Assembly (NCBI RefSeq): GCF_009914755.1
Contig: NC_060939.1
Source: the human T2T-CHM13v2.0 reference genome, Homo sapiens
Reading direction: 5' to 3' (one strand)
DNA length: 64,000 nt
Shown here: piece after piece, positions 5,631 through 37,297 of the stretch
Numbering within the stretch: the stretch's first letter is position 1
How the letters are laid out: the number at the start of each line of letters is the position of its first letter
Program-made: the position numbers and the translations under genes
The notes under the pieces: model-generated
Database searches by the model: none
What the model was told of the DNA's origin: nothing
What the model saw: only the letters and a program-made list of their open reading frames with translations

Positions 5631-5694
5631 ATAAGGAAACAACCACCATCGGTTAAATTTGATGCAAAAATATTGCATCTACCAGCATTTTCAG
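5631..5694 (+). pseudogene. ULK4-derived exon (FAM7A exon B, 64 nt) containing the ATG of MQKYCIYQHFQ
   Basis: Poly-T...ccacag| acceptor and CAG|gtagga donor. ATG at 5662 gives MQKYCIYQHFQ in a frame shifted from ULK4. Confidence 0.9.
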
Positions 5695-7129
5695 GTAGGA
5701 TCATAAAGGACTTATCGAACATGTAGACTGTCTGTATACAGATACGAATATGAAATTTATTCACAAATGGAATATTTGTATGTGAACAACTAAATTTATT
5801 TTGTCTTGACAATTGGTTATATTCTTGGGTCAGTGTTATGTGAATTGTAAATAATCTGTAATTCATTTGTGCCAGCTGTTGACATTTCTCAGCTGAGTCT
5901 GGGCTGCCCTGTCCTCTTGTGAGTGGGGAGGTTCCTGTAGATCTGGGCAAGTTTTCCTGTAGAGTGGGTGGGGGGCCTCCTCCCTTCCGTTCATAGAGCT
6001 GGTTGAATTTCCACCATTTATGGCAGGTGTAGGTGCACAGGGTTGGGGACAACAAGGAAGGATTGGGATTCTATTGGCGGGACCAGGACATTTGAGGACG
6101 GGACTAGGTGGTTCATGACTGTGGAGATGGTGTGGGAGTGGAGATACTTAAGGGATAATTATTACATTTCTGTTGAGCTAATGAAAATCTTATTTACGGT
6201 GAAAGTCAGAAATTTTTACATACCTTAAACTTTTTTTTTTTTAACAAATTATATTTTAAGCTGTTAAACTCAATTTGGGGAAAATTATTCATTGTGGCTA
6301 GAGTAGAATCTATGATTTGAAGTAAATTTAAAATATATTTAGGTTTAAATAAACCAGCTAAGGGTTTATATCAGTCAACTTAATTAGTGATAAAAACAAC
6401 CAAAAAAACCTGTGTAGAAGGACGTTTTTGAAAGACCAAAGTGAAGCAAAATATTAATAGTGCTTTCAGTGCCAAGTAGGTCTATTTATGCAAACCTAGA
6501 GAATTATTATCGGGAAATACTATTTCCTTTTTCTTCTTTGAGTTACTTAGGAAATTATATTTACAATTTCTTTGTCTAAAGATTGAGATCAGCAAAAACA
6601 TGTTAGCAAAAAATTTTAGGGAGTATCACATTTCCTAGATTTTGCCCTTTTTTTATAGGGATTTGGAGGTAGGAATTTCAGGTGATTTTAGCTATCATGT
6701 TATCCTCGTTATTTTTTTACAGTAATTTCATTGGAACTTTTTAATAACTGTGTGGTTTGTGCTTTTCTCAATATCTGAGAGTTGATTTATTTATACAAAG
6801 GCTTTTTTGTCTTTTACTCCAGTTGTATTGAACTTTGCATTTTGTTATAATCTAGGTTGTGAGACAATTCTGCTTTAGACATCTGCTTGGTTTGAAAGCA
6901 TAGTTTTCCATTGAAGTGTTTAAAAAGTTTCCATGGATAGATAAAGAGATGAGGAATATAGAAGGACAAATAGAAGTAGTGTCATCTTTGGAGTATTTTT
7001 GGTGTTGACAGAGTAATGTTTTCTTTGTCCTCATCTTAGCTGTCGTAACTCTGTGTTTATTTCTCATGTAATGTTTCCAGCAGTTGTTTTTCTCATCATC
7101 ATACTTTTGTTATTTTCTTTCCTTGGCAA

Positions 7130-35800: not shown

Positions 35801-37297
35801 CTTGTTGGGTTGTCTGAAGACCCCTCTGGCCACCCCCCACAGGACACGGAGGAGAACATCTGGACAGTGAGGGGGAGGAGGCACCTCAGCCCATGCCGAG
35901 TGTCCCAGAGGACCTGGAGAGCAGGGAGGCCATGGTGAGCCTGACTCCCCCTGCACCCATTTTGCCACCTTTCTCTGTGGTCCCTCCAAGACCCCTTTAT
36001 GCTCTTCGTTTCCCTGCCTTCTGATTTCTCTGGACCCTCACCCCTTCCGAGAGCCAGTGGTCAGACACCATTTCACCTGTGGCCAACAGGTGCACTCTCT
36101 GAGGCCCCAAGGGAAGGGGCTGCGCTCCACCTCTCTGCCCCATTTCTTCTGTGTATGCCCCTAGAAGAATGCTCACATCTTGCCCTCAGGTGGCATTTTT
36201 CAAGTCCGCTGGAGCTAGTGCCCAGGAGAAGCAGGCACAGTTACAAGAGCAGGTGAAAGAGCAGAGGGTGTGCTGCCAGCGCCTGGCTCACCCGGTGGCC
36301 TCAGCCCAGAAGGAGCCAGAGGCAGCCAGAGGCCCTGGAGCCCCAGGGCCTGGGGGCGAGTCTGTGAGTAGGGAGACCCACTGGGCCCTGCAGGAAGTCA
36401 CGGAGAAGCTGGCCCATGCCAGGACTCACCTCCACCTTCTCCATGACTTGAAAATGCCACCTGAGGGCAGGTCGCTGCCGAGATGTGACTGCAATATTTT
36501 GGCTCCAGAGCAGCTTTATGGACCACCTGAAGGAGAAGGCAGACCTGAGTGAGCTGGTGAAAAAAGAACTCTGCTTCATCCACCACTGGCGAGACAGACG
36601 CCATCAGTGAGTGGGAGGCCAGGGCACGGCAGGGGGAGCTACAGGGCCGTCGGAGGGGCCCCAGCGTCTGAGCCCTGTCCTCCCGCAGGAAAACCCATCA
36701 CCTTTTATCAGAACCAGGGGGCTGTGCCAAAGATGCGGCACTGGGAGGAGGACACCATCAGGCTGGAGCTCAGGGAGGAGATGAAGGTAGGGTGTGCAAC
36801 ATCTCTGTGGGGGTGGGGGTGGGGGTGGGTGTGAGGGTGGGCGCAAGCAGCGGCATGGCAGCTGAGCACCCCTCCCTCCAGGTGAAGCTGCTGGAGCTGC
36901 AGCAGATGGTATTGCGGCTTACAGCAACTACAACAATGGGCACAGAAAATTCCTGGCCGCTGCCCACAACCCTGCTGATGAGCCCGGTCCAGGAGCCCCA
37001 GCTCCCCAGGAGCTTGGGGCTGCAGACAAGCATGGTGGTGAGTAGAGCCCTCAGGTGGGGTGGGCAGGCAGGAAGAGGGGGCTCCCACTGTGCTCAGATC
37101 CCTGCCTCCCTCTCTCCAAAGATCTTCGTGAGGTGAGCCTCACCTCCTCTGCCCAAGGAGAGGCCAGGGAGGATCCTCTCCTTGACAAGCCTACTGCACA
37201 GCCGATCGTGCAGGACCACCAGGAGCACCCAGGCTTGGGCAGCAACTGCTGTGTGCCATTCTTGTGCTGGGCTTGGCTGCCAAGAAGAAGGAGATAA
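26872..37297 (+). CDS. GOLGA8T: Golgin A8 family member (GOLGA2/GM130-derived core-duplicon gene), 19 coding exons, 631 aa
   Basis: GT-AG exons: 26872-26919, 28589-28708, 29604-29663, 29845-29925, 30779-30817, 31080-31127, 31216-31300, 31396-31505, 32571-32657, 32764-32871, 33067-33154, 33531-33787, 34043-34111, 35336-35411, 35843-35934, 36509-36606, 36689-36786, 36882-37037, 37122-37297. They sum to 1896 nt and are open from [23 protein letters not shown] to [10 protein letters not shown]. The family call is firm; the paralog letter (T versus K or others) is inferred from ULK4P upstream and DNM1P downstream. Confidence 0.92.
28819..29117 (+). mobile_element. AluY-like in GOLGA8 intron 2
   Basis: Sense Alu flanked by GAATTCTGG on both sides. 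Confidence 0.92.
31866..31910. repeat. (GT)n microsatellite
   Basis: Directly visible. Confidence 0.95.
34385..34695 (+). mobile_element. Alu (AluS) in GOLGA8 intron 13
   Basis: Sense Alu consensus. Confidence 0.9.
35029..35253 (+). pseudogene. Dead GOLGA2-homologous exon inside a GOLGA8 intron
   Basis: [27 protein letters not shown]... with TAG at 35131 and TGA at 35155. The donor reads CAG|gggagg (no GT). Confidence 0.85.
35519..35712 (+). pseudogene. 7SL (SRP RNA) pseudogene, RN7SL-P, S-domain
   Basis: TATGCCGACTGGGTGCCTGCACTAAGTTCGGCATCAGTGTGGTGACCTCC...GTTGCCTAAGGA...GAGCAGGTCAGAACTCCC is collinear with 7SL, followed by an A-rich tail. Confidence 0.9.

What the first reader, a model, noticed from the sequence alone, without database searches (positions are those of the whole stretch)
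5662..37297. In-frame FAM7A->GOLGA8 read-through: a possible sister fusion to CHRFAM7A
Seen: exons 5662-5694, 8615-8661 and 19408-19486 total 159 nt and give an open 53-aa peptide, MQKYCIYQHFQFQLLIQHLWIAANCDIWAKVARVIGLLASHKTDLQENTPVVE, ending in phase 0. GOLGA8 exon 2 (28589) begins in phase 0 on the same strand. Direct splicing would give a 668-aa ORF that replaces [16 protein letters not shown]. Established: the first 27 aa are the N-terminus of human-specific CHRFAM7A, and the basic N-terminus of GM130 binds p115 and importin-alpha. Inference: the same cassette and its upstream promoter could drive a second fusion, a golgin with altered N-terminal targeting. Caveat: candidate intervening exons at 22.8-23.9 kb would truncate it.
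Basis: partly seen in the sequence, partly recalled or inferred. Interest (0 to 1): 0.8.

Follow-up and report, generated by a model that had tools for sequence, protein, structure and literature searches.

The report
ULK4 pseudogene upstream of GOLGA8T
The open frame is real, but it is an inherited piece of a ULK4 pseudogene that matches the neighbouring golgin gene's frame by a one-in-three coincidence, and the annotated splicing ends it early.

Summary
The arithmetic is correct. Exons 5662-5694, 8615-8661 and 19408-19486 give 159 nt and an open 53-aa peptide ending in phase 0. Joined to GOLGA8T exon 2 this reads 668 aa.

These are exons of the known FAM7A/ULK4P3 cassette.
- 42 of the 53 residues are the native ULK4 frame. 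The first 11 come from another frame of one ULK4 exon. They join the native frame because the next ULK4 exon lost its acceptor, AG to AA. The openness is therefore inherited, and the phase match is a 1-in-3 event.
- The only annotated ULK4P3 transcript lacks the ATG exon. It splices 19486 to 22851, which puts TAA at 22899.
- 10 of 11 exon paths tested stop at aa 60-119.
- The skipped acceptor at 22851 is as good as that of exon 2 and 5.7 kb nearer.
- The ATG has a weak context and follows a 28-aa upstream ORF.

A non-coding read-through into GOLGA8T is plausible. There is no AATAAA or ATTAAA at the annotated 3' end, which lies in an Alu A-tail, and the only CpG island is the ULK4P3 promoter.

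Two 99.2%-identical sister loci share the arrangement. No transcript data could be consulted.

The parts
2025..2149 (+). FAM7A exon C (ULK4-derived; annotated ULK4P3 exon). It holds an upstream ATG that opens a 28-aa uORF ending in exon B.
   Evidence: Hub annotation; 97.4% identical to chr3 ULK4 including flanks; uORF. The preprint 10.64898/2026.05.18.725959 (passages) maps CHRFAM7A mRNA to ULK4 exons 13 and 14.
5631..5694 (+). FAM7A exon B, with the ATG at 5662 in weak context (aatttgATGC). It is not in RefSeq NR_026859.1. This window's copy lacks the upstream ATG (ATAAGG) that the other copies carry (ATAATG).
   Evidence: PMC8998457 passages: exon B is alternatively spliced in CHRFAM7A and holds the start of the 27-aa N-terminus.
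7130..7311 (+). Relic of the ULK4 exon that lies between B and A in the parent gene. Its acceptor at 7128-7129 is AA instead of AG, and it contains in-frame stops. Skipping it (182 nt) brings the alternative frame of exon B into the native frame of exon A.
   Evidence: The acceptor is AA in the window, P1, P2 and CHRFAM7A copies, and AG in the older chr15 copy and in chr3.
8615..8661 (+). FAM7A exon A (ULK4-derived, native ULK4 frame). It is the last exon shared with CHRFAM7A, whose homology ends at about 11207.
19408..19486 (+). The next ULK4-derived exon (native frame), annotated ULK4P3 exon, donor GAG|gtaatg. It is absent from CHRFAM7A.
501..22702 (+). Extent of homology to the ULK4 parent locus on chr3 (84-92% identity). 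The 3' end of the duplicated ULK4 fragment is at about 22702.
22703..25013 (.). Spacer between the ULK4 fragment and the GOLGA8 duplicon. The tested part, 22712-24320, is found full-length only at this locus and its two sister loci.
   Evidence: 3 full-length places each. GOLGA8J/GOLGA8T homology starts at 25014.
22851..23471 (+). Exapted terminal exon of ULK4P3. It has acceptor cag|G, an in-frame TAA at 22899-22901, and an internal donor at 23070 (TGG|gtaagg) that RefSeq GOLGA8T alternative transcripts use. The annotated 3' end lies in the A-rich tail of an Alu-like repeat, and no AATAAA or ATTAAA occurs in 22851-24000.
   Evidence: hub annotation.
23770..23849 (+). Second spacer exon (alternative GOLGA8T transcript). 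Its splice sites are good, and it carries stops in the frame entering from 19486.
   Evidence: hub annotation.
26774..26919 (+). GOLGA8T canonical first exon (ATG at 26872, 16 codons). It has no acceptor, so it cannot be an internal exon.
   Evidence: hub annotation.
27510..27675 (+). Alternative GOLGA8T first exon (no acceptor). Its ATG gives MLT plus exon 2, a 618-aa isoform that already replaces the 16 exon-1 residues.
   Evidence: hub annotation.
28589..37297 (+). GOLGA8T exon 2 to the stop codon (18 coding exons). Exon 2 encodes the part homologous to the central helix and major basic site of the GM130 NLS-like motif.
   Evidence: 6iw8_A, E 1.8e-4.

Best explanation
The stretch is one of three 99.2%-identical copies of a composite 15q13 duplication unit. 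In it, a 22-kb internal fragment of ULK4 (the FAM7A cassette, here ULK4P3), driven by an acquired CpG-island promoter, lies head-to-tail upstream of a complete GOLGA8 gene (here GOLGA8T).

The 53-aa frame is a by-product of descent. The ULK4 exon between B and A lost its acceptor and is skipped. An out-of-frame ATG in exon B therefore reads into the native ULK4 frame of the next two exons, which is open because it was coding in the parent.

The ULK4 fragment ends at 22702, so the donor at 19486 has no ULK4 partner. It uses the first good acceptor downstream (22851), an exapted exon that stops the frame after 69 aa.

Inferred: many of these RNAs do not end at 23471. They splice on from 23070 through 23770-23849 to GOLGA8T exon 2, as a long, ATG-rich non-coding leader or an NMD substrate.

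The in-frame 19486 to 28589 junction is at most splicing noise and makes no functional chimeric golgin.
For: Shown:
- ORF arithmetic.
- 10 of 11 tested exon paths stop at aa 60-119; only the direct one stays open.
- ULK4 homology spans 501-22702, the CHRFAM7A copy shares only 7-11207, and P1 and P2 share all 40 kb.
- The chr3 exons B+15+A+next give one open 122-aa frame, and the exon-15 acceptor is AA in the 4 young copies.
- All 8 nucleotide differences from chr3 in the 126 nt of native-frame coding sequence change the residue, 7 residues in all. There is no sign of purifying selection.
- The 22851 acceptor has 13 of 16 pyrimidines and cag|G, equal to exon 2's and 3.4 kb away against 9.1 kb.
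- The ATG context is weak and follows a 28-aa uORF. The read-through model has 8 ATGs before the first long GOLGA8 ORF.
- The only CpG island from -12 kb to +64 kb lies at -5249 to -3749, around the ULK4P3 start. No AATAAA or ATTAAA occurs in 22851-24000, and the 3' end at 23471 lies in an A-rich Alu tail.
- RefSeq GOLGA8T alternative transcripts start at 22980, inside the ULK4P3 last exon (hub table).

Literature:
- Fusion transcripts of duplicated genes are common but rarely keep an ORF, and an ARHGAP11B isoform runs into a ULK4 duplicate (PMC6169893, passages).
Against: - No RNA data were available, so neither the read-through nor the absence of the direct junction is shown.
- The direct junction is in frame in all three loci, with intact GOLGA8 ORFs. 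This is what one would want for a real chimera.
- Exon 2's acceptor is evidently used by a distant upstream donor (23849) in an annotated transcript, so it is accessible.
- The start at 22980 may be an independent promoter rather than a truncated read-through.
- Splice-site quality was judged only by consensus matches and pyrimidine counts, not by a trained model.
- Eight substitutions are too few to exclude weak selection.
Confidence: 0.6

Rival explanations
1. There are two separate transcription units. ULK4P3 RNAs really terminate near 23.4 kb, and GOLGA8T is transcribed only from its own starts (22980, 26774, 27510). There is neither a read-through nor a fusion, and the frame match has no consequence.
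For: The hub annotation lists ULK4P3 as a transcribed pseudogene ending at 23471 and gives GOLGA8T its own first exons. The exons at 26774 and 27510 have no acceptor, so they are true first exons. Searches for ULK4P3, ULK4P1/2, GOLGA8T and GOLGA8+ULK4 returned 16, 16, 17 and 20 papers. None of the listed titles or abstracts, nor the passages read, describes a read-through.
Against: No AATAAA or ATTAAA occurs within 22851-24000. The annotated end sits in a genomic A-rich run, typical of internal oligo-dT priming. A good donor at 23070 lies inside that 'terminal' exon and is used by an annotated GOLGA8T transcript. There is no CpG island at any GOLGA8T start.
Confidence: 0.3
2. A genuine minor isoform includes exon B, skips 22851-23070 and 23770-23849, and joins 19486 to 28589. 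It is translated into a 668-aa FAM7A-GOLGA8 chimera whose N-terminus lacks the exon-1 KKK cluster.
For: The joined frame is open in the window (668 aa) and in both sister loci (669 and 668 aa). The stop would lie in the last exon, so the mRNA would escape NMD. The promoter and cassette are those that drive CHRFAM7A. This window's exon B has lost an out-of-frame upstream ATG that the other copies keep.
Against: It needs three conditions together: inclusion of an exon absent from the annotated transcript, double skipping of well-formed nearer exons, and initiation at a weak ATG after a uORF. The phase match is a 1-in-3 coincidence. The ULK4-derived residues show only amino-acid-changing substitutions. 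Exon 2 keeps the GM130-like helix and the already degenerate basic run (NRNRK against KKKKK), so the change in targeting would be partial. In other duplicated gene families fewer than 2% of such fusions keep an ORF (PMC6169893, passage on NBPF).
Confidence: 0.06

Closest known systems
CHRFAM7A (FAM7A-CHRNA7 chimeric gene, C15:28.17 Mb in this assembly)
   Same: It has the same promoter region and the same exons C, B and A (99.3-99.7% over -10 kb to 11207; coding parts of B and A identical). The start codon and the first 26 to 27 residues are the same.
   Different: In CHRFAM7A the genomic breakpoint lies in the intron after exon A, so exon A splices straight to an internal CHRNA7 exon with nothing between. 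Here the cassette continues for another ULK4 exon. It is then followed by 2.3 kb of spacer with two exapted exons and a complete GOLGA8 gene with its own first exons. Transcripts and protein are reported for CHRFAM7A (PMC8998457 passages); none is reported for the junction proposed here.
Fusion or read-through transcripts of human segmental duplications (Dougherty et al. 2018, PMC6169893)
   Same: A 3'-truncated duplicate (the ULK4 fragment) whose last donor finds new exons in flanking sequence, then a neighbouring core-duplicon gene on the same strand. An ARHGAP11B isoform that reaches a ULK4 duplicate is described there.
   Different: That study did not report a FAM7A to GOLGA8 transcript in the passages I read. 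Its 5 searchable supplementary files held no ULK4, GOLGA8 or FAM7A (one file not searched). The ULK4 fragment here also lacks the ancestral promoter and uses an acquired one.
GM130 (GOLGA2) N-terminal NLS-like motif that binds p115 and importin-alpha
   Same: GOLGA8T exon 2 aligns to the GM130 peptide crystallised with importin-alpha (6iw8_A, E 1.8e-4). By position, exon 1 supplies the preceding basic cluster.
   Different: GOLGA8T has NRNRK where GM130 has KKKKK. Binding of p115 or importin by any GOLGA8 protein is untested; PMC6920530 (passages) says there is no direct evidence even for localisation. RefSeq already has an isoform (MLT plus exon 2) without the exon-1 residues.

Membership tests
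FAM7A cassette / ULK4 partial duplicate (ULK4P3) | Homology to an internal segment of ULK4 on chr3 | tested here: met
   window 501-22702 aligns to C3:41.88-41.92 Mb at 84-92% identity. Searches show the exon-level matches.
FAM7A cassette / ULK4 partial duplicate (ULK4P3) | Near-identity with the 5' part of CHRFAM7A, including the promoter and exons C, B and A | tested here: met
   The CHRFAM7A locus was verified by three Neur_chan_memb (PF02932) segments downstream of the breakpoint.
FAM7A cassette / ULK4 partial duplicate (ULK4P3) | Present about four times on 15q13.3 (PMC8998457) | tested here: met
   four copies at 100% identity for exon A plus flanks, one older chr15 copy at 92%, and the chr3 parent.
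GOLGA8 / GM130-like golgin | Intact ORF with a GM130-like N-terminal motif | tested here: met
   631-aa ORF; exon 2 matches the GM130 peptide; 98.3% identical to the GOLGA8J unit over 17.8 kb.
CHRFAM7A-type chimeric protein-coding gene | A genomic junction inside introns of both parents, so that cassette exons splice directly to internal partner exons | tested here: not met
   the complete GOLGA8 unit with its own first exons, and a 2.3-kb spacer with two exons, lie between the cassette and exon 2.
CHRFAM7A-type chimeric protein-coding gene | An open frame across the junction | tested here: met
   This holds only for the direct 19486 to 28589 path, 1 of 11 paths.
CHRFAM7A-type chimeric protein-coding gene | Transcript and protein evidence for the junction | not testable with these tools
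   No RNA-seq, EST or proteome data were on hand. Literature searches found no report.
Read-through (conjoined) transcription unit | Same-strand neighbours with an RNA that bridges them | tested here: inconclusive
   Same strand and adjacency are met. Bridging is only suggested: an annotated GOLGA8T transcript starts inside the ULK4P3 last exon (hub table), and there is no poly(A) signal.

The most novel reading that the evidence does not exclude
The CpG-island FAM7A promoter, known for driving CHRFAM7A, also drives transcripts into the GOLGA8 genes at all three FAM7A-GOLGA8 loci. A minority of these, with exon B included and both spacer exons skipped, encode a 668/669-aa golgin. Its first 16 residues, including the KKK half of the GM130-like p115/importin motif, are replaced by 53 ULK4-derived residues. 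That would be a second family of FAM7A chimeric proteins in 15q13.
Probability: 0.05. Interest if true: 0.6.

Novelty: already known. Interest (0 to 1): 0.15.

Why it matters
If the chimera were real, 15q13.3, a region of recurrent neurodevelopmental deletions, would hold up to three more FAM7A fusion genes beside CHRFAM7A. Copy-number changes there would then alter a golgin with a changed N-terminus.

As it stands, the result is a caution: two native reading frames on one strand agree in phase one time in three.

The by-products are more useful:
- Loss of one acceptor explains where the CHRFAM7A start and its 27-aa N-terminus come from.
- The annotated ULK4P3 3' end looks like an internal-priming artefact. 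FAM7A-promoter RNA may therefore run into GOLGA8T and confound expression estimates of both genes.

Tried and rejected
- Two papers that might describe FAM7A exons or GOLGA8 transcripts, asked for by PMC id (PMC4486515 and PMC4244265), are not held. The original FAM7A descriptions cited in the reviews were not looked up.
- A PDB sequence search with the 26-aa exon 19409-19486 found nothing. The native ULK4 frame was therefore established from the chr3 locus itself. It agrees with my recollection of the ULK4 protein but was not checked against a protein record.
- I first guessed that 19408-19486 and 22851-23471 are FAM7A exons 'E' and 'F'. I dropped this because PMC11176066 (passages) places primers in exons F, D-C, B and E all upstream of CHRNA7 exon 5, so the letters cannot be assigned from what I read.
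- A sensitive BLAST of the promoter region against the window gave almost only Alu hits. It showed no second copy of the promoter in the window.
- No trained splice-site model was available, so only consensus and pyrimidine counts were used.
- Protein database, structure and complex tools were not used. They cannot bear on whether a junction is spliced.
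Full report
**1. Observation**

Each is followed by GT, and the second and third are preceded by AG. Joined, they give 159 nt and the quoted 53-aa peptide without a stop, ending in phase 0.

The annotated GOLGA8T coding sequence translates to 631 aa, and its first exon carries exactly 16 codons. Exon 2 (28589) therefore starts in phase 0, and the joined frame is 668 aa plus a stop. The arithmetic is right.

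Two corrections apply:
- 5662 is the ATG, not an exon boundary. The exon starts at the acceptor at 5631.
- The single RefSeq ULK4P3 transcript in the hub table (2025-2149, 8615-8661, 19408-19486, 22851-23471) does not contain that exon.

**2. What the exons are**

The assembly holds six copies of exon A with its flanks:
- the window itself;
- C15:28.379 Mb (+), called P2 here;
- C15:30.218 Mb (-), called P1 here;
- C15:28.174 Mb (-);
- an older copy at C15:28.441 Mb (92%);
- C3:41.913 Mb (-), 92%.

I fetched 40 kb at each and aligned them.
- The chr3 locus, the ULK4 parent, is homologous to window 501-22702 at 84-92%.
- The C15:28.174 copy matches window 7-11207 at 99.7% and then diverges.
- P1 and P2 match the whole 40 kb at 99.2%.
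- The older copy matches 3950-22702 at 92-95%.

Downstream of its breakpoint the C15:28.174 copy carries, on the same strand and in order, three open segments that match Pfam Neur_chan_memb: 3 of 31 open segments of 90 aa or more that were scanned, E 3e-8 to 3e-15. It is therefore CHRFAM7A.

This agrees with the review PMC8998457 (passages read). There, FAM7A is a cluster of exons A-F present four times on 15q13.3, exons A, B, C and E derive from ULK4, and translation from the alternatively spliced exon B gives the 27-aa N-terminus. The window's cassette is thus the known FAM7A/ULK4P3 copy.

**3. Where the open frame comes from**

In the chr3 parent a 182-nt exon lies between B and A. The four chr3 exons (B, this exon, A and the next) give one uninterrupted 122-aa frame, the native ULK4 frame. 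It agrees with my recollection of the ULK4 protein, which I did not check against a record.

In the window and in P1, P2 and CHRFAM7A the acceptor of that exon is AA. In the older chr15 copy and in chr3 it is AG. The window relic (7130-7311) also carries stops.

Skipping 182 nt shifts the frame by two. An ATG in another frame of exon B then reads into the native frame of exon A and of 19408-19486. One search shows that the same join would be open even with the chr3 letters.

Hence 42 of the 53 residues are native-frame ULK4 and 11 are new. Seven of the 42 differ from chr3. All 8 nucleotide differences in these 126 nt change the residue, which gives no sign of purifying selection, though the number is small.

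The frame is therefore open by descent, and its phase-0 end is the parent's exon phase. Agreement with the phase of GOLGA8T exon 2 has a prior of one in three.

**4. What lies between the cassette and GOLGA8T**

ULK4 homology ends at 22702. Homology between the GOLGA8J unit upstream of the window and the GOLGA8T unit starts at 25014, at 98.3% over 17.8 kb. Of the spacer between them, 22712-24320 occurs full-length only at the three loci (3 full-length places each; the other hits are an Alu-like repeat at 23243-23487 and short low-complexity matches).

The annotated ULK4P3 last exon (22851-23471) and the first two exons of an alternative GOLGA8T transcript (22980-23070, 23770-23849) lie in this spacer. 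So the donor at 19486, having lost its ULK4 partner, uses an exapted exon. This is the pattern Dougherty et al. describe for 3'-truncated duplicates (PMC6169893, passages).

**5. Consequences for the frame**

I tested 11 exon paths from 19486 to exon 2. Only the direct one stays open. The 10 with any annotated intervening exon stop at aa 60-119. Through 22851 the frame ends at TAA 22899-22901, after 69 aa.

The exons at 26774 and 27510 have no acceptor and are true first exons.

Splice sites:
- The 22851 acceptor has 13 of 16 pyrimidines and cag|G. The exon-2 acceptor also has 13 of 16.
- The introns would be 3364 nt and 9102 nt respectively.
- The 23770 acceptor (12 of 16) and the donors at 23070 and 23849 (6 and 7 of 9 consensus positions) are also ordinary.

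Nothing in the sequence favours skipping both spacer exons.

The exon-B ATG has T at -3 and C at +4 and follows a 28-aa uORF from exon C.

**6. Does ULK4P3 RNA run into GOLGA8T?**

Several features suggest that it may:
- The only CpG-island-like stretch between -12 kb and +64 kb is at -5249 to -3749, around the ULK4P3 start at -4545. Its core is not Alu.
- No GOLGA8T start has a CpG island.
- There is no AATAAA or ATTAAA in 22851-24000. The annotated end at 23471 lies inside a genomic A-rich run at the tail of the Alu-like repeat. That looks like internal oligo-dT priming on an RNA with the 23070 intron retained.
- An annotated GOLGA8T transcript begins at 22980, inside this exon (hub table).

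I infer, but cannot show, that part of the FAM7A-promoter RNA continues 23070 to 23770-23849 to 28589. In that model the FAM7A frame stops at 69 aa, and 8 ATGs precede the first long GOLGA8 frame, a 480-aa N-truncated ORF. The leader would be non-coding or an NMD substrate.

**7. The sister loci**

In P1 and P2 the coding parts of exons B and A and all of 19408-19486 are identical to the window's. The GOLGA8 ORFs there are intact (631 and 632 aa), and the hypothetical joined frames are open (668 and 669 aa). Any such product would therefore come from three loci.

All four young copies share 10 kb upstream of the cassette at more than 99.3%, so the 'same promoter' statement holds. The nearest relative of the CHRFAM7A cassette is P2 (4 mismatches in 21.2 kb), not the window (43 in 16.1 kb).

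**8. The protein argument**

GOLGA8T exon 2 aligns to the GM130 peptide crystallised with importin-alpha (6iw8_A, E 1.8e-4). PMC6754406 (passages) describes that motif, residues 13-39, in three parts: a minor site of three lysines, a short helix and a major site of five lysines. Both p115 and importin-alpha bind this N-terminus.

By position, the exon-1 KKK is the minor site. The helix and the major site are encoded by exon 2 and would be kept, but GOLGA8T has NRNRK where GM130 has KKKKK. So the swap would remove only half of an already degenerate motif.

RefSeq's alternative first exon 27510-27675 already yields MLT plus exon 2, 618 aa, which lacks the same 16 residues.

**9. Literature on a read-through**

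| Search terms | Papers holding the terms |
|---|---|
| ULK4P3 | 16 |
| CHRFAM7A + GOLGA8 + ULK4 | 8 |
| FAM7A + exon F | 1 |
| GOLGA8T | 17 |
| FAM7A / ULK4 / GOLGA8B (at least 2 of 3) | 17 |
| ULK4P1 / ULK4P2 (at least 1) | 16 |
| GOLGA8 + ULK4 | 20 |

For most of these I saw only the listings and abstract starts. None points to a FAM7A-GOLGA8 transcript.

I read passages of seven papers:
- PMC8998457 and PMC11176066;
- PMC6169893 (also its 5 searchable supplementary files, which held no ULK4, GOLGA8 or FAM7A; one file was not searched);
- the preprints 10.64898/2026.03.03.709017 and 10.64898/2026.05.18.725959;
- PMC6754406 and PMC6920530.

The first preprint treats FAM7A and GOLGA8 as separate duplicons and uses Iso-Seq only for gene-level counts. 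The two papers I asked for by PMC id were not held, and the original FAM7A descriptions cited in the reviews were not looked up, so an early cDNA description of such a transcript could have escaped me.

**10. Verdict**

What is really there is the annotated ULK4P3 copy of the FAM7A cassette next to GOLGA8T. The sequence does argue for overlapping, probably non-coding, transcription between the two. Interest is low (0.15). The chimera is not excluded (about 5%), and junction counts from existing long-read data would settle it.

Noticed in passing
window 7128-7311, and the same place in L007-L018 and the chr3 loci L023-L026: The CHRFAM7A start and its 27-aa N-terminus exist because the ULK4 exon between FAM7A exons B and A lost its acceptor. 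It is AG in chr3 and in the older chr15 copy, and AA in the four young copies. Skipping its 182 nt joins an alternative frame of exon B to the native ULK4 frame. I did not find this explanation in the passages I read.
   Followed up: yes
window 5635 (exon B): The window copy reads ATAAGG where P1, P2 and CHRFAM7A (and, by the difference map, the older copy and chr3) read ATAATG. ULK4P3 alone therefore lacks the native-frame upstream ATG 30 nt before the MQKYC start. It is also a handy paralog-specific variant.
   Followed up: partly
window 23243-23487: The annotated 3' end of ULK4P3 (23471) lies in the A-rich tail of an Alu-like repeat with no AATAAA or ATTAAA nearby. It is probably an internal-priming artefact of the cDNA behind NR_026859.1.
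   Followed up: partly
G000:C15:28432844-28472843 (L019-L022): An older FAM7A-like copy, 92-95% identical to window 3950-22702. It ends at the same 22702 boundary as the chr3 homology, lacks exon C, keeps the AG acceptor of the skipped exon, and is not followed by the spacer or GOLGA8 unit within the 40 kb fetched. It may be the first chr15 landing site of the ULK4 fragment.
   Followed up: partly
L031 and L007-L008 compared with L033 and L015-L016: The FAM7A part of CHRFAM7A is nearly identical to the copy at C15:28.37 Mb (4 mismatches and 5 gaps in 21.2 kb). It is more distant from the window copy (43 mismatches in 16.1 kb) and from the copy at C15:30.22 Mb (40 in 16.1 kb). This suggests recent origin from, or gene conversion with, the 28.37 Mb copy.
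   Followed up: partly
window 2025-2149 and 5631-5694 compared with chr3: The preprint 10.64898/2026.05.18.725959 (passage) gives 98-99% identity between CHRFAM7A mRNA and ULK4 exons 13 and 14. With 12-nt flanks I measured 97.4% for exon C but 92.0% for exon B, including a 3-nt indel.
   Followed up: no
window 27510-27675: This alternative GOLGA8T first exon supplies an ATG 9 nt before its donor. The result is a 618-aa isoform beginning MLT plus exon 2, after a 20-aa uORF.
   Followed up: partly
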